A stretch of DNA of 64,000 bases from IMG/VR virus record IMGVR_UViG_3300009073_000002. One strand, given 5' to 3'. The stretch is from a virus. The notes under the pieces were generated by a model. The model saw only the letters and a program-made list of their open reading frames with translations. It did not search any database and was not told the DNA's origin. Position 1 is the stretch's first letter, and every line of letters starts with the position of its first letter. Positions 4,585 through 63,362 of this stretch are shown here, piece after piece. The position numbers and the translations under genes were made by a program.

Positions 4585-5625
4585 ATGATTGCAGAAGAAT
4601 TAAAAAGTAATGACCTGACATGGTTGAGAATTTACAATGGTGTCATAGTCCAGACCCTAGCTAAGGGGTATGAGCCGCCACAAGGATTAGCGGAGGATCA
4701 GTACATGTCAAGGAAAATAACCAAAGGGAAGTATCAGGATCAGAATGAGTATTATAAAGAATATAAAACTCTTACTGGTCTAATGAAGCCACCTCAAGTC
4801 AAAAGAGGTCAATTTGGTCTTGAAATAATGGTTTTCCTAGATTCTGGAGGTACAGACGTTTGTTTGACTTTAAGCACGAAGGATAATGCAGGTCAAGCAT
4901 TTATGAGAGCATTTAGGAACATTAGACTTAACGAACAAATTAAGTTTAATGGTCGAAGATATAATCGTAAAAGTGATGGCAAAGAGACTACTGGATTCTG
5001 GATGTATCAGAGAGGGAATGATGGAACATTTGAAGCAGGAAACTCTCAGGTAAATGATTTTCATTTGTGGGATGATTTACCAAAACCAATAAAAAGATAT
5101 GATGCTGATAAAGGTAGAGAAGTAGACGATTATGGACCTGCACAAAAGTTCTTGTTTGATTCATTGGTTGCTACGCTGACACAAGTTTATCCTGGTTGGT
5201 ATTATGATGCTCAAAGTGGTAAAGGAAAGGTTGTTAACACAAATAACAATCAGCAACAGAATTATAATCAGAATCAACAGCAACAGCAGAATCAGCAACA
5301 GAATTATAATCAGCAGAATCAGCAACAGCAGAATCAGCAGCAGAATTATAATCAGCAACAGAATCAGCAGCAGAATTATAATCAGCAGAATCAGCAACAG
5401 AATCAGCAACAGCAGAATCAGCAACAGAATTATAATCAGCAACAGAATCAGCAACAGCAGAATACTCAGCAAAATCAGCAGCATAGTTCGCAGATTAGTC
5501 AAAATCAGCCCCTGATGGGTGATCCTAATAAGCAGCAACAATATCAGCAAAATCCACCACCGCCAAGTCAGGAGCAATATGGTGAGCAGTTTAATCAAGG
5601 AGTACCTGACGACCTTCCATTTTAA
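4585..5625 (+). CDS. SSB-like protein with Q/N-rich low-complexity linker and acidic DDLPF C-terminal tip
   Basis: The C-terminus ...GVPDDLPF resembles the bacterial SSB tip DDDIPF. About 90 aa of N/Q repeats (QQNYNQ) lie before the tip. The gene sits in the replication module. The N-terminal fold is not recognisable by eye. Confidence 0.55.
   Translation: MIAEELKSNDLTWLRIYNGVIVQTLAKGYEPPQGLAEDQYMSRKITKGKYQDQNEYYKEYKTLTGLMKPPQVKRGQFGLEIMVFLDSGGTDVCLTLSTKDNAGQAFMRAFRNIRLNEQIKFNGRRYNRKSDGKETTGFWMYQRGNDGTFEAGNSQVNDFHLWDDLPKPIKRYDADKGREVDDYGPAQKFLFDSLVATLTQVYPGWYYDAQSGKGKVVNTNNNQQQNYNQNQQQQQNQQQNYNQQNQQQQNQQQNYNQQQNQQQNYNQQNQQQNQQQQNQQQNYNQQQNQQQQNTQQNQQHSSQISQNQPLMGDPNKQQQYQQNPPPPSQEQYGEQFNQGVPDDLPF
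5242..5500 (+). repeat. imperfect tandem CAG/CAA/AAT repeat tract encoding the Q/N-rich domain
   Basis: Reiterated cagcaacagaattataatcag units. The ORFs on other frames and on the opposite strand (5161..5598, 5204..5515) are repeat artefacts. Confidence 0.85.
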
Positions 5626-10375: not shown

Positions 10376-11878
10376 ATGTTGAGACCAGACTTATTTAGGA
10401 ATAATGTAGTTGAAAAGTTAATCCCAAGGGATTACCAGGAAGTGTCTGTTCGTAGTATAATTGACTATATAAAGTCTGCTACTACTTTTGATAAGAAAAG
10501 AGGCGTATATGTAGGTCCGGTAGCGTGTGGAAAAAGTTTCATAATAGCATTAGCGGCATTAGAGTTGGGAGAGCCAATATTGGTATTGCAGCCGAGTAAG
10601 GAATTGCTTGGTCAGAATTACGAGAAGTATACTGATGCAGGAGGTGTAGCGACTATATTCAGTGCTAGTATGAAAATGAAAGTATTGAGCTCTAATACCT
10701 ATGCAACTCTAGGGTCAATTAAAAATCAAGCCGCTAAACTTAAAAAATTAGGAGTAAGATATGTATTCATAGATGAATGTCATAAAGGTTATAGTCCTGA
10801 AGAGAAAGGAGTAGCTAGAATATTTTTGGAAGCATTAGATCCAACTTGTGTCGTTGGATTCACTGCGACACCAGTGAGATTAGAGTATGAAAAGAAAAAT
10901 GGTTTGCAGAAAAGCGGTATGCAGATTAAATTCATTACAAGTACTAATCCTACTTTATTTAATGATGTCATTCATATTGTTCAGATATCTGAAATCAAAC
11001 AATACTGGCCAGATATCTCTCTTTATGAATTTGACTTTGACGAATCAGCCCTAGTAACGACTAAAGATGGTACAGACTTCACAGATAAGAGTGCGTCGGA
11101 AGCAGTTGAGAAGAATAAAGTAAATCGAAATATTTGCATGCATTTGAAGTCAATTTCTAAAGAGAGGAAATCAACTTTAGTTTTTGTAGATAGTGTAGCT
11201 TCTGCTCATAAGTTTAGTAAATGGTGTAACGAATCATTAGGACTTAACACAGCAGTTGTTTATGGTGGAATGAATCTTGATCTAAGGAGTGATATTGTTG
11301 AAGAATTTAAGAACTTAGAAATTGATGTTATTTTCAATTTCGGTACATTAACTACTGGTTTCGATCACCCTGAATTGGATTGTGTTGTATTAGGTCGGCC
11401 AATGAATTCTTATAGTGACTTTTATCAAATGATAGGTAGAGGATTAAGAATTCATATAGAAAAAGAGAATTGCATGGTACTTGATTTCTGTAATAACTTT
11501 AGAAGAATGGGAGATGTAAGAAAAATGGAGATACTACATGTGCCTTACTGGGGATGGGCTATATTTGTTGGAGGAAAGCTATTGACTGATATTCCAATTA
11601 AAGGACCAAAACTTACTTTAGAACAAACTATAGTTTTAGGAAAGACTAGAGAATATAATTTGAAGAAACCTCGAATTGGATTTGGGCAGTATACAGAATG
11701 TGGATATGAAAAACTTGTAGAAGATCCGGGTTACTTGAGGTACTTACTGCCAAAAATAGAAGCTAAAATTGCAGAGGAAGGAAAGAAGATACCAAAGAAA
11801 TACATAAGATTTGTAGAAATGGGAAAATTTATTTTAAATATAGAAAAAGAATTAAAAAATGTTCGAAAAGCAGCCTAA
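10376..11878 (+). CDS. SF2 DEAD/DEAH-box DNA helicase
   Basis: Walker A GPVACGKS, DECH box (FIDECH), FTATP and motif VI QMIGRGLR. Confidence 0.8.
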   Translation: MLRPDLFRNNVVEKLIPRDYQEVSVRSIIDYIKSATTFDKKRGVYVGPVACGKSFIIALAALELGEPILVLQPSKELLGQNYEKYTDAGGVATIFSASMKMKVLSSNTYATLGSIKNQAAKLKKLGVRYVFIDECHKGYSPEEKGVARIFLEALDPTCVVGFTATPVRLEYEKKNGLQKSGMQIKFITSTNPTLFNDVIHIVQISEIKQYWPDISLYEFDFDESALVTTKDGTDFTDKSASEAVEKNKVNRNICMHLKSISKERKSTLVFVDSVASAHKFSKWCNESLGLNTAVVYGGMNLDLRSDIVEEFKNLEIDVIFNFGTLTTGFDHPELDCVVLGRPMNSYSDFYQMIGRGLRIHIEKENCMVLDFCNNFRRMGDVRKMEILHVPYWGWAIFVGGKLLTDIPIKGPKLTLEQTIVLGKTREYNLKKPRIGFGQYTECGYEKLVEDPGYLRYLLPKIEAKIAEEGKKIPKKYIRFVEMGKFILNIEKELKNVRKAA

Positions 11879-13460
11879 CAAACAGCAAGAGAAAGTACCA
11901 CCACAACCTAGAGGTGGTGCTAAAATTCCACCTACAGAGACTGAGAGTATAATTAGTCAGGCTATAGAAGTGGTTGAAAAAGTATTTGACACACTTGGTC
12001 CAAATGGAAAGAGAGTAGTTTATCAGAGTGCCGAAGGGATCGGCGCGAGTAAGGATGGTGTGACCATTTTAAAACATCTCTGGCATTACGATGAGAATGT
12101 AGACAATGCAATTGAATTGATCCGTCAAGGAAGTGAAAAGACTCTCCAAGAGGAAGGTGATGGAACAACAACAACAGCAATGTTAGCTTGTATCCTTTAT
12201 GGAATAATCACAGACAAAGCATTCGCGGAAATTCCACATCACCAGAAAGTGAAAATTGTAGAGGATTCTGAAAAAGCGATTCTGGAAGAACTTGAAGTAA
12301 TGATGCTTCCATGTGATACTGAAGAAGCATTAATCAAGATTGCTACCATCTCAGCAAATAATGATGCTGAAATAGGACAGCACATAGGATCTCTAGTCTC
12401 TAAGTACAGAGAGAATTCATTTATGATGATCAATAAGGGACGAAATCCAAAGACCATTGTAGAAGAAATGAAGGGAGTCTATTTAGATTGTTCTATTCAC
12501 AGTGATTACTTTTTAGATGATGGGCCTGCAATTAATAGGCCTCAGTCAGTATTATTGATGCTGAATGAAGCTGTTGGGTCAAGTAAAGGAATCATTGAAG
12601 ATTGTGCCGAGTATTGTATAGATAGAGGGATTAAGAGTATGATACTAATGTGTGAGTCAGTAGAGCCGACAATCTTAGAAGTATTTAAGGAATATGCTCA
12701 AACTGGATTTGACATAGTTCCAATCGGGCTACCTGATCATGGTGAGTTAAGACACCAAAAAATGGAGGATCTAGCTAGTGTAACTGGTGGAACCTACTTT
12801 CGAAGTGGAAAAGGAAAAAGCACTGATCCTGCGGATTGCTTAGGTGAAATAGCATATGCTAAGATATTGAAGTACGAAGTAGTATTGTCATTACTCGATT
12901 CAGCAGTTCCTAAAGTAAAATCAAGGACAAAGTATCTCAATGAGAAACTTGCAGAAATAGAAAAGTCAGATATTGTAAATAGAGATTTTGCAATAGATAA
13001 CATGAAGGAAAGAATCTCTTTAATCAATTCTAGTACTTGTACAATCATCGTAGGAGGACGAACTCCTGCGGAAGTAAGCGAGAAGTACGATCGGTATGAT
13101 GATGCCAAGAGAGCGACTATTAGTGCGCTGCAAAACGGTTTAGTGGTAACTTCATCTCAGGCATTGCATCAAGTGTCAGATGAATTAATCCTAAGAAAAG
13201 GGAATTCTGATTTGGAAGATGCTATTTATAATGCTCTAATAAAGCCATTTGAGTATGTCACAAAGGATTTATATGTAGAGTTTAGACCATTGAAAGGAGA
13301 AGCTTTGAATATTATTACAGATACATTAGGAGAACCACTAGAGGTAGGTGCAATCGATCCGTATGCTGTTGTGAGAAGTTGTGTTAAAAATGGATTTAGT
13401 GTAGCAAAAATGTTGATGAGTATTTCATCATTTGTGAAATTAAAGCCACATAGGAGGTAA
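11859..13460 (+). CDS. groEL: GroEL/Cpn60-family chaperonin
   Basis: LGPNGKRVV...ASKDGVTILK...EEGDGTTTTAMLA matches the GroEL equatorial-domain signature. 533 aa. Confidence 0.8.
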   Translation: MFEKQPNKQQEKVPPQPRGGAKIPPTETESIISQAIEVVEKVFDTLGPNGKRVVYQSAEGIGASKDGVTILKHLWHYDENVDNAIELIRQGSEKTLQEEGDGTTTTAMLACILYGIITDKAFAEIPHHQKVKIVEDSEKAILEELEVMMLPCDTEEALIKIATISANNDAEIGQHIGSLVSKYRENSFMMINKGRNPKTIVEEMKGVYLDCSIHSDYFLDDGPAINRPQSVLLMLNEAVGSSKGIIEDCAEYCIDRGIKSMILMCESVEPTILEVFKEYAQTGFDIVPIGLPDHGELRHQKMEDLASVTGGTYFRSGKGKSTDPADCLGEIAYAKILKYEVVLSLLDSAVPKVKSRTKYLNEKLAEIEKSDIVNRDFAIDNMKERISLINSSTCTIIVGGRTPAEVSEKYDRYDDAKRATISALQNGLVVTSSQALHQVSDELILRKGNSDLEDAIYNALIKPFEYVTKDLYVEFRPLKGEALNIITDTLGEPLEVGAIDPYAVVRSCVKNGFSVAKMLMSISSFVKLKPHRR

Positions 13461-47235: not shown

Positions 47236-47565
47236 TTATTGGATTTTATTTGGGTTTGCGTATTCTTTCCTTCCTTTGTGTTTGATCCACTCAGAGTCGT
47301 CTGGGTCGCCTTCAATGGTCTTTCCCTGCGCTGAGAGTTCTTCCCACTTTTTAAGTGCTCTCATAGCATCAGAATGACCTTGATAACAATATCTACCTTT
47401 ATATCCATCTAAGGATAGACCATAGACTAAGCCTACTGTAAAAGCCATTCTCCTGAGTCCTACATATCCTTTACCTAAGATGAATTTCACAAATAGATAT
47501 CCTTCATTTTCCAGGAGTAGTTCAAGTTCAATGTTTTTGGTTCTTTTTCTTGTTGTTGTTTGCAT
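47236..47565 (-). CDS. hypothetical protein
   Basis: 109-aa ORF. Confidence 0.55.
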   Translation of the reverse strand: MQTTTRKRTKNIELELLLENEGYLFVKFILGKGYVGLRRMAFTVGLVYGLSLDGYKGRYCYQGHSDAMRALKKWEELSAQGKTIEGDPDDSEWIKHKGRKEYANPNKIQ

Positions 47566-47975
47566 TAGTTTTTAATTATTAATTTATTTGATTCTATTTT
47601 CTTTAAATGACTTCCAACTGAAATCCATCCTTTTGTACGTCTCTTAACTGGGGTAACATATCCTCCTTTAAGCCAATACAATCTAGTTCCATGCAGTCTT
47701 GCATGTACTGGTATCCTTTCCCCTCGTCCGTTGTAATCTGCCATTACTTCAATTTTTTCAACTAATACTATACCTGCTGACGAATAAACAATATCACCTT
47801 TTTTGAATTGGATTTTAGAGGCTAATTTTTGCTTTAATTTTCGAATCTTATGTTCCTTTATTCGGTTTAATGCCTCTAATGTCTTTTTGTAGTCATCGTC
47901 AAAATCTCTTAATGCTTTTTCTATTGGGACTACTCTCGAATCATTTTTTATTAATCTATTCATGAATTTTTGCAT
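47565..47975 (-). CDS. hypothetical protein
   Basis: 136-aa ORF. Confidence 0.55.
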   Translation of the reverse strand: MQKFMNRLIKNDSRVVPIEKALRDFDDDYKKTLEALNRIKEHKIRKLKQKLASKIQFKKGDIVYSSAGIVLVEKIEVMADYNGRGERIPVHARLHGTRLYWLKGGYVTPVKRRTKGWISVGSHLKKIESNKLIIKN

Positions 47976-59625: not shown

Positions 59626-59699
59626 GGTAGCCTTGTGCTGTTTTGCAATGCAGCCGGACTGTGGATCTGGTGCGACGGGTTGGATTCCCGAGGTTTACC
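59626..59699 (+). tRNA. tRNA-His (GUG) with encoded G-1; atypical D and T loops
   Basis: Anticodon arm CCGGA-CTGTGGA-TCTGG. G-1 lies opposite C73. One acceptor mismatch. The D loop lacks GG and the T loop is TTGGATT. Confidence 0.55.
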
Positions 59700-59823: not shown

Positions 59824-59903
59824 GGTCAGGTAGCCACCCTCCTCTTCTAAAGGAGTAAGTGTAATTGGAGCTGAAAATCGGGGTTCGAATCCCTGTCTGA
59901 TCA
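59824..59903 (+). tRNA. atypical tRNA-like gene, anticodon-like loop UCU (Arg)
   Basis: 7-bp acceptor GGTCAGG/TCTGATC and T-arm CGGGG-TTCGAAT-CCCTG. The hairpin CTCCT-CTTCTAA-AGGAG starts only 8 nt after the acceptor strand and is followed by 23 nt. Confidence 0.4.
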
Positions 59904-59928
59904 CTATTAAATAATAAATTTATTATTG

Positions 59929-59936
59929 TATATTTG
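59929..59936 (+). promoter_or_regulatory. -7 box TATATTTG
   Basis: 17 nt upstream of the ATG at 59954. Confidence 0.45.
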
Positions 59937-59953
59937 TAAAAAATATATTAATT

Positions 59954-60220
59954 ATGACAGCATCGGAATTGTTAAATAAAGTACTGACTAAAGTATTTGC
60001 ACTTCAATCTTTATCTGGTAAAATCAGGATAAAGACTGAAGAAAATAAAATGCAAGAACTAAATCTGTTTATTGTCTACTCTAATCATCCTGTTCAGTAT
60101 AACAATAAAATAAGTATTCTGAATTCTGATGATCATGATCTTGAAGAAATTTGGGAACAATTCAAAGAAGATGTTGATACCAATATAAGAGCAATTGATC
60201 ATATCGTTAATATGCCTTAA
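59954..60220 (+). CDS. hypothetical protein
   Basis: 88-aa ORF between tRNA genes. Confidence 0.55.
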   Translation: MTASELLNKVLTKVFALQSLSGKIRIKTEENKMQELNLFIVYSNHPVQYNNKISILNSDDHDLEEIWEQFKEDVDTNIRAIDHIVNMP

Positions 60221-61954: not shown

Positions 61955-61959
61955 ATTAG

Positions 61960-62027
61960 CACAGGATGAATGAGTCGAACACTCTCGTAAGGGTTTGGAA
62001 TCCTTTTAGCTCCACAGCCTATCCTGC
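61960..62027 (-). tRNA. tRNA-Trp (CCA), short D arm
   Basis: Acceptor GCAGGAT/ATCCTGT, anticodon loop TTCCAAA, T-arm GAGTG-TTCGACT-CATTC. 68 nt. Confidence 0.65.
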
Positions 62028-62033
62028 ATAAAT

Positions 62034-62113
62034 GATTGATCCTCGGATTCGAACCGACCTCTGCCATTGCCACTCACTTTTCAGCGCGGGAGGAATCGAA
62101 CCTCAAAATCAAT
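62034..62113 (-). tRNA. degenerate/atypical tRNA-like element (no assignable anticodon arm)
   Basis: Acceptor ATTGATT/GATCAAT, a 3' T-arm GTCGG-TTCGAAT-CCGAG, and a second T-arm-like hairpin GAGG-TTCGATT-CCTC where the D arm should be. Confidence 0.3.
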
Positions 62114-62118
62114 CATAG

Positions 62119-62193: not shown

Positions 62194-62230
62194 TAAAAAA
62201 AGCCTCGCAAAATTAATTACGAGGCTTTTT
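62194..62230. terminator. bidirectional terminator hairpin (stronger on the minus strand)
   Basis: A7-AGCCTCG...CGAGGCT-T5. Confidence 0.65.
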
Positions 62231-62316
62231 CATATGATCTAATCACATAGGTTTAGCAATCTCGCAATTCATGCAAAGAGAAACAAAACCATTTTTTTGT
62301 AATTAAAATCATAATG

Positions 62317-62336
62317 CAAATATAGTGTTATATTTG
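62317..62336. promoter_or_regulatory. divergent pair of TATATTTG -7 boxes
   Basis: CAAATATA (minus strand, 62317..62324) and TATATTTG (plus strand, 62329..62336). Confidence 0.45.
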
Positions 62337-62348
62337 TTAAAAAATAAC

Positions 62349-63285: not shown

Positions 63286-63362
63286 TATCTGCGGAGAGAC
63301 TTGAACTCTCATGTGACCAATTACGCTTTCGACAAGATATAAGCTTGAGGCGATACGCAGAC
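63286..63362 (-). tRNA. atypical tRNA-like gene, anticodon-like loop UAU (Ile)
   Basis: Acceptor GTCTGCG/CGCAGAT and T-arm GAGAG-TTCAAGT-CTCTC. The hairpin CAAG-CTTATAT-CTTG starts 8 nt after the acceptor strand and is followed by 22 nt. Confidence 0.4.

What the first reader, a model, noticed from the sequence alone, without database searches (positions are those of the whole stretch)
59824..59903. tRNA-like gene with normal acceptor and T arms but the anticodon hairpin placed where the D arm should be (1 of 3)
Read 5' to 3' the gene is GGTCAGG-TAGCCACC-[CTCCT CTTCTAA AGGAG]-TAAGTGTAATTGGAGCTGAAAAT-[CGGGG TTCGAAT CCCTG]-TCTGATC-A. The acceptor (7 bp) and T arm are textbook. The internal hairpin has a canonical 7-nt loop with U33, anticodon UCU and A37. 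However, only 8 nt separate it from the acceptor strand, against about 18-20 nt in the canonical tRNAs of this same window. In addition, 23 nt follow it, against the usual 4-5 nt. That 3' segment carries a D-loop-like AATTGG motif. The triplet just 5' of that motif (GTG) is complementary to CAC in the 5' linker. The loci at 63286 and 63697 have the same layout, with compensating triplets CGC/GCG and ATC/GAT. This suggests a strand-swapped D stem that encloses the anticodon arm. I do not know of any described tRNA with this topology. Possible roles are functional tRNAs, decoys for anticodon nucleases, or processing elements.
Basis: partly seen in the sequence, partly recalled or inferred. Interest (0 to 1): 0.85.

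Follow-up and report, generated by a model that had tools for sequence, protein, structure and literature searches.

The report
Phage tRNAs with strand-swapped D stem
This is most likely a working arginine tRNA gene whose internal wiring differs from the universal cloverleaf (the anticodon arm sits inside the D arm). It belongs to a large family hidden in phage genomes that standard tRNA finders and GenBank annotations miss.

Summary
Window 59824-59903 (+) encodes an 80-nt tRNA-like RNA with textbook acceptor and T arms. Its UCU anticodon hairpin starts only 8 nt after the acceptor strand. ARAGORN misses it. Rfam's tRNA model fits it only by deleting the D arm and inserting 20 nt before the T arm.

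It is not a one-off. Pattern and covariance-model searches recovered 151 copies (134 distinct) in 111 phage-type loci. These include cultured Pseudomonas, Microbacterium and crAss-like Bacteroides phages, where the genes checked are unannotated.

Anticodons are Arg (113), Ile (17) and CAU (2). The base after the displaced G18G19 is A in 112/113 Arg members and U in 18/19 Ile/CAU members, matching bacterial ArgRS and IleRS identity elements. R15-Y48 covaries. Encoded CCA follows each contig's convention. AGA makes up 64% of this phage's Arg codons.

Best reading: a functional tRNA-Arg(UCU) with a rewired core. Ten literature searches found no description. Expression and charging are untested.

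The parts
59824..59830 (+). Locus 1, acceptor stem 5' strand GGTCAGG
   Evidence: Pairs 7/7 with 59896-59902. The acceptor helix covaries in the family.
59831..59831 (+). U8. Invariant U8 and A9 follow the acceptor strand in 134/134 members.
   Evidence: RNAalifold pairs U8 with the invariant G at 59873 (U.G in 23/23; no covariation).
59832..59834 (+). Helix D' 5' strand (A9 G10 C11)
   Evidence: Pairs with GCU at 59870-59872. Family pair types: 10-52 GC15/AU6/CG2; 11-51 CG12/UA5/AU2/UG1.
59835..59837 (+).
   Evidence: Pairs with GUG at 59859-59861. Family: C12-G invariant in the A1 long-class alignment (23/23); 13-40 GC14/AU4/CG4/GU1; 14-39 AU6/CG5/GC4. All classes: 359/402 cells paired.
59839..59855 (+). 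Anticodon arm CUCCU-CUUCUAA-AGGAG; anticodon UCU at 59846-59848 (Arg, codon AGA)
   Evidence: Aligned to the anticodon arm of RF00005 by Infernal. The stem covaries. C at 59838 can pair with the U at 59856 in the RNAalifold model.
59859..59861 (+). Helix X 3' strand (GUG)
   Evidence: As for 59835-59837.
59862..59869 (+). Displaced D-loop motif U-A14-A15-U-U-G18-G19-A20
   Evidence: TAATTGG in 112/134 members; variants keep A-R...GG. The base after GG is A in 112/113 Arg members. A20 is the main bacterial ArgRS determinant (PMC9976931).
59870..59872 (+). Helix D' 3' strand (GCU)
   Evidence: As for 59832-59834.
59873..59878 (+). Connector GAAAAU to the T stem. The last U is the Y48 equivalent.
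   Evidence: Position 15 against the last connector base: A/U 126, G/C 6, A/A 2. This fits a retained R15-Y48 Levitt pair.
59879..59895 (+). T arm CGGGG-UUCGAAU-CCCUG
59896..59903 (+). Acceptor 3' strand UCUGAUC plus discriminator A. No CCA is encoded.
   Evidence: Encoded CCA in the family follows each contig's convention.
63286..63362 (-). Locus 2, short-class member, anticodon UAU (Ile). On the minus strand: acceptor 63362-63356, UAU 63355-63353, X 5' CGC 63352-63350, anticodon loop 63343-63337, X 3' GCG 63326-63324, D loop UAAUUGG 63323-63317, UCACAU 63316-63311, T arm 63310-63294, acceptor 3' 63293-63287, discriminator A 63286.
   Evidence: 42.2 bits with R1, not in the seed. Short-class X helix: 59/60 cells paired, 12 distinct triplets.
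63697..63773 (-). Locus 3, anticodon GAU (Ile). On the minus strand: acceptor 63773-63767, linker UAAUCGG 63766-63760, anticodon arm 63759-63743, ACUAAGA 63742-63736, D loop U-A14-G15-C-G-G 63735-63730, UUGAAAAC 63729-63722, T arm 63721-63705, acceptor 3' 63704-63698, discriminator A 63697.
   Evidence: 41.8 bits with R1. G15 with C48. X core pairs U11-A and C12-G. The third pair is either A10-U (reader) or, following the family pattern, A9/A10 pair with UU before GAAAAC.

Best explanation
Locus 1 is a gene for a functional elongator tRNA-Arg(UCU). Loci 2 and 3 encode tRNA-Ile(UAU) and tRNA-Ile(GAU). All three belong to a widespread phage tRNA class with a rewired core.

Structure (shown by covariation):
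- The acceptor stem, T arm and anticodon arm are canonical.
- The chain leaves the acceptor stem through U8-A9 and runs as one continuous 7-8-nt strand straight into the anticodon stem.
- After the anticodon arm the chain pairs back onto that strand (helix X).
- It then forms the D-loop nucleotides (U-A14-R15-..-G18-G19-N20).
- In the long class it pairs once more onto nucleotides 9-11 (helix D') before a short A-rich connector ending in Y48 enters the T stem.
- The D stem is thus kept as a helix stacked on the anticodon stem, but with its strand connectivity swapped.

Inferred:
- The D-loop nucleotides still dock on the T loop (G18G19 with psi55/C56), U8-A14 and R15-Y48 still form, and the RNA adopts an L shape.
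- It is cut out of the tRNA-cluster transcript by RNase P and the 3' processing enzymes, and receives CCA.
- It is charged by the host ArgRS (A20, C35, U36) or IleRS (A73, U20, anticodon).
- It reads AGA, AUA and AUY, which are among this AT-rich phage's most-used Arg and Ile codons (AGA is the commonest Arg codon, AUU the commonest Ile codon).
For: 1. No canonical fold exists. Infernal places the hairpin as the anticodon arm and deletes the D arm in all three loci.
2. Helices X and D' covary in a MAFFT alignment of 23 long-class genes: 96.2% of cells paired against 64.4% shuffled, and 36-45% when partners are slid. RNAalifold predicts the same structure on its own. Short-class X is paired in 59/60 cells with 12 distinct triplets. 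Across all 134 distinct members X is paired in 359/402 cells.
3. aaRS identity elements track the anticodon. The base after the displaced GG is A in 112/113 Arg members and U in 18/19 Ile/CAU members. The discriminator is A in 19/19 Ile/CAU members. These match the bacterial Arg set (A20, C35, U/G36) and Ile set (A73, U20...) tabulated in PMC9976931.
4. Tertiary covariation: position 15 against the last base before the T stem is A/U 126 times and G/C 6 times, never A/C or G/U.
5. Encoded CCA directly follows the discriminator in 20/22 members from loci whose canonical tRNAs mostly encode CCA, and in 0/49 members from loci where they do not.
6. The genes lie inside tRNA clusters, a median of 53 nt from the nearest canonical tRNA.
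7. In 44 of 50 fetched loci no canonical tRNA with the same anticodon was seen. One search lists 8 of 50, of which two are ARAGORN calls of the family member itself.
8. In the window, AGA is 64% of Arg codons and AUA is 34% of Ile codons. No canonical Arg(UCU) or Ile tRNA lies in the visible part of the cluster.
Against: - There is no expression, end-mapping, aminoacylation or ribosome data of any kind.
- Helices X and D' are only 3 bp each. X's third pair is mismatched in about 20% of members.
- The 3-D fold is inferred, not modelled. EF-Tu and the ribosome contact the D stem region, and their tolerance of this core is unknown.
- Six of 50 loci also carry a canonical isoacceptor with the same anticodon, so the rewired copy is not always needed for decoding.
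- Locus 2 has only a 4-bp anticodon stem plus a U.U, a G1.U72 pair, and scores below Rfam's threshold.
- U33 and R37 were required by my parser, so their apparent invariance is not independent evidence.
Confidence: 0.75

Rival explanations
1. Same RNA and same fold, but its main purpose is counter-defence. On this view the rewired core makes a chargeable tRNA that escapes host tRNA-targeting nucleases or other D-arm-dependent host factors. Alternatively the RNA acts as a decoy that soaks up such nucleases, rather than simply supplementing decoding.
For: Phage tRNAs are known to rescue infection from tRNA-cleaving defences such as retron Eco7 PtuAB, PrrC and PARIS (PMC11555353). Six of 50 loci carry both a canonical and a rewired tRNA with the same anticodon, a redundancy that a resistance function would explain. 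The class is almost confined to phage-type tRNA arrays: 90 viral contigs against 16 hits in 596 Gb of cellular genomes with the same pattern.
Against: No defence system or nuclease is linked to it in any data seen here. Known evasion works through anticodon-loop changes or overexpression, and the anticodon loops here are ordinary (CUUCUAA, CUACGAA). A pure decoy would not need A20/U20, A73 or an encoded CCA that follows the contig convention.
Confidence: 0.15
2. Decayed tRNA pseudogenes or tRNA-gene fragments with no function.
For: Low or sub-threshold scores with standard models. ARAGORN is silent. The same cluster holds other odd tRNA-like sequences.
Against: There are 134 distinct sequences from 111 loci in phages of unrelated hosts. 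They keep the same layout with compensatory changes in five helices and invariant U8, A9 and G18G19. Decay would not preserve these.
Confidence: 0.02
3. A canonical tRNA in disguise. On this view the mature RNA becomes a normal cloverleaf after removal of an insertion or intron, or the gene is permuted and is rearranged during processing.
For: Non-canonical intron positions and permuted tRNA genes exist in archaea and a red alga (my own knowledge).
Against: Removing the hairpin leaves 38 nt before the T arm, which is too short for a D arm plus an anticodon arm. The acceptor 5' and 3' strands are in normal order. Every segment takes part in a covarying helix or a conserved motif, so all are under selection in the final RNA.
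Confidence: 0.02

Closest known systems
Canonical bacterial and phage tRNA-Arg / tRNA-Ile (cloverleaf, Rfam RF00005)
   Same: 7-bp acceptor stem, discriminator, 5-bp T stem with UUCGAAU loop, 5-bp anticodon stem with 7-nt loop, U8-A9, D-loop nucleotides A14-R15...G18G19-N20, Y48, identity elements A20 (Arg) or U20 and A73 (Ile), location in tRNA clusters, CCA convention.
   Different: There is no local D hairpin. The anticodon arm lies between the D-stem-like 5' strand and the D loop. The D loop comes after the anticodon arm. There is no variable loop between the anticodon arm and the T arm in the usual sense. ARAGORN misses all three genes, and Infernal scores them at 25-40 bits.
D-armless mitochondrial tRNAs, e.g. 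mt-tRNA-Ser(AGY/UCU) (PMC7609411)
   Same: The anticodon arm follows the acceptor stem after a short connector, giving a three-way junction instead of four. UCU is one of the anticodons.
   Different: The mitochondrial forms have lost the D loop and its G18G19/T-loop contacts, have a short variable loop, and are floppy. Here the connector is base-paired, the D-loop nucleotides are kept but relocated, and the T loop is fully canonical. The genes are in phages, not organelles.
tRNA-like domain of tmRNA
   Same: An acceptor/T-arm stack joined to one long helix. A single-stranded D-loop analogue contacts the T loop without a D stem (my own knowledge).
   Different: In tmRNA the D-loop analogue is on the 5' side, the long helix leads to pseudoknots and a tag reading frame, and there is no anticodon loop. 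ARAGORN's tmRNA search found nothing here.
Class II tRNAs (Leu, Ser, Tyr) and allo-tRNAs (PMC5389517)
   Same: A long stretch between the anticodon arm and the T arm. Like allo-tRNAs, these were found by mining metagenomes and phages.
   Different: Those have a normal D arm and a self-contained variable hairpin, or altered 8/4 and 9/3 acceptor/T lengths. Here the long stretch pairs with the 5' linker and carries the D loop, and the acceptor/T arrangement is the standard 7/5.
Circularly permuted tRNA genes of Cyanidioschyzon merolae (my own knowledge)
   Same: The order of tRNA elements along the DNA departs from the cloverleaf order.
   Different: There the gene is permuted but the mature tRNA is a normal cloverleaf. 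Here the gene is colinear with an RNA whose own topology is changed.

Membership tests
Canonical cloverleaf tRNA (RF00005 / ARAGORN) | 7-bp acceptor stem plus discriminator | tested here: met
   GGTCAGG/TCTGATC pairs 7/7, discriminator A.
Canonical cloverleaf tRNA (RF00005 / ARAGORN) | T arm: 5-bp stem and UUCRANY loop abutting the acceptor 3' strand | tested here: met
   CGGGG-TTCGAAT-CCCTG.
Canonical cloverleaf tRNA (RF00005 / ARAGORN) | Anticodon arm: 5-bp stem, 7-nt loop, U33, purine 37 | tested here: met
   CTCCT-CTTCTAA-AGGAG, aligned to the model's anticodon arm.
Canonical cloverleaf tRNA (RF00005 / ARAGORN) | Local D-arm hairpin (10-25) between the acceptor and anticodon arms | tested here: not met
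   Only 8 nt lie there. Infernal replaces 13-15 model positions with 3-4 nt in all three loci.
Canonical cloverleaf tRNA (RF00005 / ARAGORN) | Variable region of 4-5 nt, or a self-contained extra hairpin | tested here: not met
   23 nt with no local hairpin. Its two triplets pair with the 5' linker instead.
Canonical cloverleaf tRNA (RF00005 / ARAGORN) | Detection at curated thresholds | tested here: inconclusive
   ARAGORN: none. Rfam gathering run on the window: only locus 3. Locus 1 reaches 30.5 bits against a cut-off of 29 only when searched alone. Locus 2 scores 25.3 bits. tRNAscan-SE was not available.
Canonical cloverleaf tRNA (RF00005 / ARAGORN) | Mature CCA end, aminoacylation, use by the ribosome | not testable with these tools
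   Indirect evidence only: the CCA convention, identity nucleotides, codon usage.
D-armless mitochondrial tRNAs | D arm replaced by an unpaired connector; D-loop/T-loop contacts lost; short variable loop | tested here: not met
   The connector is paired (helices D' and X). G18G19 and a canonical T loop are retained. 23 nt precede the T arm.
Class II (long-variable-arm) tRNAs | Normal D arm plus a variable-arm hairpin | tested here: not met
   Neither is present.
Permuted or intron-containing tRNA genes | 3' half upstream of 5' half, or a removable insertion that leaves a cloverleaf | tested here: not met
   The acceptor strands are in normal order. Excising the hairpin leaves too little sequence.
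Strand-swapped-D-stem phage tRNA class (defined here, model R1) | Helix X: the 3 nt ending one nt before the anticodon stem pair with the 3 nt just 5' of U-A14 | tested here: met
   CAC/GUG in locus 1 and CGC/GCG in locus 2. Locus 3 has 2 of 3 pairs in register. Family covariation.
Strand-swapped-D-stem phage tRNA class (defined here, model R1) | Displaced D loop U-A14-R15-(N1-3)-G18G19-N20 between the anticodon arm and T arm, with R15/Y48 matched | tested here: met
   Locus 1 UAAUUGGA...U; locus 2 UAAUUGGU...U; locus 3 UAGCGGU...C.
Strand-swapped-D-stem phage tRNA class (defined here, model R1) | Helix D' (long class): nt 9-11 pair with the 3 nt after N20 | tested here: met
   AGC/GCU in locus 1. 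Absent in short-class locus 2. Possibly AA/UU in locus 3.
Strand-swapped-D-stem phage tRNA class (defined here, model R1) | Covariance-model score well above canonical tRNAs | tested here: met
   Locus 1 scores 91.5 bits (in the seed). Loci 2 and 3 score 42.2 and 41.8 bits (not in the seed). Canonical tRNAs of the window score 27.4 bits or less.

The most novel reading that the evidence does not exclude
Phages of many unrelated bacteria (Pseudomonas, Microbacterium, Streptomyces, Bacteroides and numerous uncultured hosts) use a so-far undescribed structural class of genuine, chargeable tRNAs. In this class the L shape is built with a different strand topology: the D stem is strand-swapped, the D loop is relocated 3' of the anticodon arm, and in one subclass it is a bulge between two helices. 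The class is invisible to routine annotation and almost absent from cellular genomes. It may have been selected because it escapes host factors that recognise the canonical D arm.
Probability: 0.55. Interest if true: 0.92.

Novelty: new variant of a known kind. Interest (0 to 1): 0.86.

Why it matters
Outside mitochondria the cloverleaf is treated as universal. A large natural family that keeps every functional module of a tRNA but connects them in another order would show that the L shape does not require the cloverleaf topology. It would also give a natural experiment on what synthetases, EF-Tu, RNase P, modification enzymes and the ribosome really need.

Practical consequences:
- Phage tRNA repertoires are undercounted. 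Here the missed genes decode some of the phage's most-used Arg and Ile codons.
- Annotation pipelines need a new model.
- The scaffold could be useful as an orthogonal tRNA chassis.
- Members exist in cultured Pseudomonas, Microbacterium, Streptomyces and crAss-like phages, so every prediction is directly testable at the bench.
- If the architecture confers resistance to tRNA-targeting immunity, it adds a new move to the phage-host arms race.

Tried and rejected
1. I looked for a missed canonical cloverleaf using ARAGORN, Rfam at the gathering threshold, and Rfam at E<=10 on small windows. None was found. The only fits delete the D arm.
2. I considered reading the hairpin as a D arm with the anticodon arm in the 23-nt stretch. 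The candidate stems have at most 2-3 pairs and no U33, so I rejected this by inspection.
3. I considered a local hairpin between the two 3' triplets (X 3' with D' 3'). They are not complementary in locus 1 or in homologs (table).
4. I tested a D'-like pairing in the short class (A9-U10 with the last AU before the T stem). There is no covariation: members with UAC or UAA do not compensate.
5. I searched for close relatives of the window phage to get orthologous clusters. Megablast of the cluster found only canonical tRNA fragments. The neighbouring 344-aa protein has no relative in viral contigs. blastn of locus 3 found nothing in isolate phages.
6. Ten full-text literature searches and reading the 2020 review of non-canonical tRNAs found no description of this topology. 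The library lacks many subscription papers, so this is not proof of absence.
7. Single-sequence MFE folding is weakly informative (z -1.0 to -1.75). It recovers helix X for locus 1 only.
8. The two other odd loci in the cluster (62034-62114, 59626-59699) are not members of this class: the first scores 14.5 bits with R1, the second was not among R1's window hits at E<=10, and both get only weak Rfam hits.
Full report
**1. The observation**

It has a 7-bp acceptor stem (GGTCAGG/TCTGATC), an 8-nt linker and a 5-bp hairpin with the loop CUUCUAA. After 23 nt containing TAATTGG comes a textbook T arm (CGGGG-UUCGAAU-CCCUG) and discriminator A.

The window's last 4.5 kb is a tRNA cluster. ARAGORN canonical tRNAs there but nothing at 59824, 63286 or 63697. 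Rfam at its gathering thresholds reports the same kind of set plus locus 3 (63697-63773, minus strand, 39.7 bits). Searched in small windows, locus 1 reaches 30.5 bits and locus 2 reaches 25.3 bits.

- the D arm of the model (13-15 positions) is replaced by 3-4 nt;
- the hairpin is aligned as the anticodon arm (UCU, UAU, GAU);
- 18-20 nt are inserted in the variable region.

No canonical cloverleaf was overlooked.

**2. It is a family, not an oddity**

Parsing them gave 51 distinct genes with the window's layout. I built a covariance model (R1) from 23 of them.

R1 scores in the window:

| Sequence | Bits | Note |
|---|---|---|
| Locus 1 | 91.5 | in the seed |
| Locus 2 | 42.2 | not in the seed, E about 2e-8 |
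| Locus 3 | 41.8 | not in the seed, E about 3e-8 |
| Canonical tRNAs of the window | 27.4 or less | |

Over all loci fetched, R1 finds 151 copies in 111 loci, 134 of them distinct. There are often two to four per tRNA cluster.

With one identical, stricter pattern there are 90 hits in the viral-contig collection. The 596-Gb collection of bacterial and archaeal genomes gives only 16. Twelve of those 16 are family members, and each sits in a dense, phage-like tRNA array on a MAG contig.

Members also occur in cultured phages:
- Pseudomonas phages PA11, TC6, PSA11, IME180, Bitten, ventosus and UAVern;
- Microbacterium phages Zooman and A3Wally;
- Streptomyces phage TunaTartare;
- the crAss-like Bacteroides phage Kehishuvirus 'tikkala';
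- a 642-kb megaphage.

Most of these rest on blastn similarity alone. PA11, Zooman, Bitten and tikkala were inspected, and the last three scored with R1 at 50.7, 63.5 and 34.0 bits. No GenBank record annotates a tRNA at the spot. Most show no feature at all. In Zooman the gene sits in a gap between two annotated tRNA-Arg genes.

**3. Secondary structure**

Two classes are visible.

Long class (locus 1; about 80 nt):
acceptor - U8 - [A9 N10 N11] - [C12 N13 N14] - N - anticodon arm - U A N - [N N G] - U A A U U G G A - [N N U] - G A A A A U - T arm.
- The second bracket pairs with the third.
- The first bracket pairs with the fourth.

In a MAFFT alignment that was not fitted to any structure (A1), 96.2% of all cells form standard pairs. 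Column shuffles give 64.4%, and sliding partners by 1-3 columns gives 36-45%. Pair types in the two short helices:

| Helix | Columns | Pair types |
|---|---|---|
| D' | 10-52 | GC 15, AU 6, CG 2 |
| D' | 11-51 | CG 12, UA 5, AU 2, UG 1 |
| X | 13-40 | GC 14, AU 4, CG 4, GU 1 |
| X | 14-39 | AU 6, CG 5, GC 4, UA 1, UG 1 |

RNAalifold, given only that alignment, predicts the same helices. It adds an invariant U8.G pair and an extra N15-U pair that extends the anticodon stem.

Short class (locus 2; about 76 nt):
acceptor - U A U - [N N N] - N - anticodon arm - (N) N G A A A - [N N N] - U A A U U G G N - N A C A U - T arm.
With positions fixed only by distance from the 5' end and from TAATTGG, helix X is paired in 59 of 60 cells, with 12 different complementary triplets. 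Shuffles give a mean of 29.8 and a maximum of 44.

Over all 134 distinct members, X is paired in 359 of 402 cells with 33 distinct triplet combinations. Shuffles give a mean of 219 and a maximum of 250. U8 and A9 are invariant, and the 5' linker is 7 or 8 nt in 132 of 134.

Locus 3 is a compact variant. Its X core (U11-A, C12-G) is in the family register. That D'-like pairing covaries in related Ile members (C10-G, U10-A, A10-U).

**4. Evidence that the RNA is a real tRNA**

- *Anticodons.* They are restricted to Arg (UCU 61, ACG 28, UCG 17, CCU 7), Ile (GAU 11, UAU 6) and CAU (2).
- *Identity nucleotides outside the anticodon change with it.* The base after the relocated G18G19 is A in 112/113 Arg members and U in 18/19 Ile/CAU members. 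The discriminator is A in all 19 Ile/CAU members. The review of tRNA identity lists A20, C35 and U/G36 for bacterial Arg and A73, U20 (among others) for bacterial Ile. It calls A20 the main ArgRS determinant (PMC9976931).
- *Tertiary covariation.* Position 15 of the relocated D loop and the last base before the T stem are A/U in 126 members and G/C in 6, including locus 3. They are never A/C or G/U. This is what a retained R15-Y48 Levitt pair predicts.
- *CCA.* In loci where at least 60% of canonical tRNAs encode CCA, 20 of 22 family members have CCA right after the discriminator. Where 20% or fewer do, 0 of 49 have it.
- *Location and redundancy.* The genes sit a median of 53 nt from a canonical tRNA. 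In 44 of 50 loci no canonical tRNA with the same anticodon is present in the fetched stretch. Of the 8 apparent duplicates, two are ARAGORN calls of the family member itself.
- *Codon demand.* In the window (35% G+C), AGA is 64% of Arg codons, AUA is 34% of Ile codons and AUY is 65% of Ile codons. The only Arg(UCU) and Ile genes in the visible part of the cluster are the rewired ones.

**5. How it probably works (inference)**

In a cloverleaf, two connectors (8-9 and 44-48) must run along the D stem in opposite directions to join the four helices. Here the chain goes acceptor, then down one strand into the anticodon stem, then back up the other strand. It then passes through the D-loop nucleotides and enters the T stem.

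Helix X occupies the place of the D stem, stacked on the anticodon stem. Its 5' strand takes the spatial role of 22-25 and its 3' strand the role of 10-13, which as in a normal tRNA runs on into A14. In the long class the return path from the elbow forms helix D' with nucleotides 9-11, where a cloverleaf has tertiary layers.

The 7-8-nt 5' strand equals the number of stacked layers (two tertiary layers, four D-stem pairs and position 26) between the acceptor/T junction and the anticodon stem of a normal tRNA. A standard anticodon-to-CCA distance is therefore plausible.

The acceptor/T minihelix is intact. By established knowledge it is what RNase P, the 3' processing enzymes and the CCA-adding enzyme chiefly recognise. 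None of this fold was modelled or measured here.

**6. Rivals**

- *Counter-defence.* Phage tRNAs do rescue infection from tRNA-cleaving defences (PMC11555353). Six loci carry a canonical twin. The class is nearly phage-specific. But nothing here links it to any nuclease, the anticodon loops are ordinary, and a pure decoy would not need A20/U20, A73 or CCA. I treat this as a possible reason for the architecture rather than an alternative to tRNA function.
- *Pseudogenes and 'canonical tRNA after processing'* are contradicted by the covariation and the arithmetic of the sequence.

**7. Comparison with known systems**

The closest relatives in function are ordinary tRNA-Arg and tRNA-Ile. The closest in shape are the D-armless mitochondrial tRNAs, the tRNA-like domain of tmRNA, class II tRNAs and allo-tRNAs. 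Each fails a defining feature (see the membership table).

Rfam 15 has no family for it beyond weak tRNA hits. Ten full-text searches and the 2020 review of non-canonical tRNAs turned up no description. The library is incomplete, so I put the chance of a prior description at roughly one in five.

**8. Context**

The window's helicase is nearest to those of the gut phage csAssE-Sib, Cellulophaga phages and a Bacteroides phage. TAnnTTTG motifs precede ORFs. The window probably comes from a large phage of a Bacteroidota host with no close sequenced relative.

**9. Verdict**

- It is a new structural variant of a known kind of molecule.
- It is of high interest and can be tested at the bench in cultured phages.

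Noticed in passing
window 59626-59699 (+): A divergent tRNA-His(GUG)-like gene lies between tRNA-Pro and tRNA-Arg(ACG). It has G-1 and C73, anticodon arm CCGGA-CUGUGGA-UCUGG, an unusual T loop UUGGAUU and one acceptor mismatch. ARAGORN misses it and the Rfam tRNA model gives only 13 bits.
   Followed up: partly
window 62034-62114 (-): A tRNA-like gene lies between tRNA-Phe and tRNA-Trp. It has a 9-bp acceptor-like stem (GAUUGAUUU/GGAUCAAUC), a 4-bp T stem and a T-arm-like hairpin GAGG-UUCGAUU-CCUC right after the acceptor strand. It gives a weak tRNA-Sec hit (20.7 bits, E 0.027) and is not a member of the strand-swapped class (14.5 bits with R1). Its nature is unresolved.
   Followed up: partly
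window 61959-62027 (-): tRNA-Trp(CCA) is only 69 nt, with a much shortened D arm.
   Followed up: no
L036, L042, L069, L082 (coordinates output): Phage tRNA-Ile(UAU) genes of 92-94 nt with a long, hairpin-like variable arm. This is a class II-like architecture, which is unusual for Ile.
   Followed up: no
L008, L014, L031, L037, L060, L076, L080: A conserved 101-nt tRNA-like gene (AGTCAGGTGGCGGAATGGTAGACGC...GGGTTCGAATCCCGTTCTGACTA) with about 25 extra nt in the anticodon or variable region.
   Followed up: no
L010, L020, L035, L073, L108, L118: A conserved 74-nt tRNA-like gene (CTCCTGCTACCCACTGGGATGGGCTCGTGTTTAATTGGTT...TAGGTTCGAATCCTACGCAGGAGT) with no obvious standard anticodon arm.
   Followed up: no
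L121 (Pseudomonas phage PA11, NC_007808 about 47672-47751): The unannotated rewired tRNA-Arg(UCU) gene starts inside the 3' end of the annotated HNH endonuclease CDS (47246-47698) and ends with an encoded GCCA. ARAGORN finds no tRNA in the surrounding 3 kb.
   Followed up: partly
window 5291-5530: An imperfect tandem repeat of CAGCAG/AATCAG-type units lies inside ORF 4585-5625. It showed up as noise in the stem scan.
   Followed up: no
window 11859-13460 (+): The phage encodes a GroEL-like chaperonin (PHROG 5725, E 2e-77) next to a helicase whose nearest relatives are in Bacteroidota phages.
   Followed up: no
window 59911-59940 and about 62320-62340: TAnnTTTG motifs (Bacteroidota-type promoter -7 element) lie upstream of the ORFs starting at 59954 and 62325. 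A strong bidirectional terminator-like hairpin lies at about 62196-62232.
   Followed up: no
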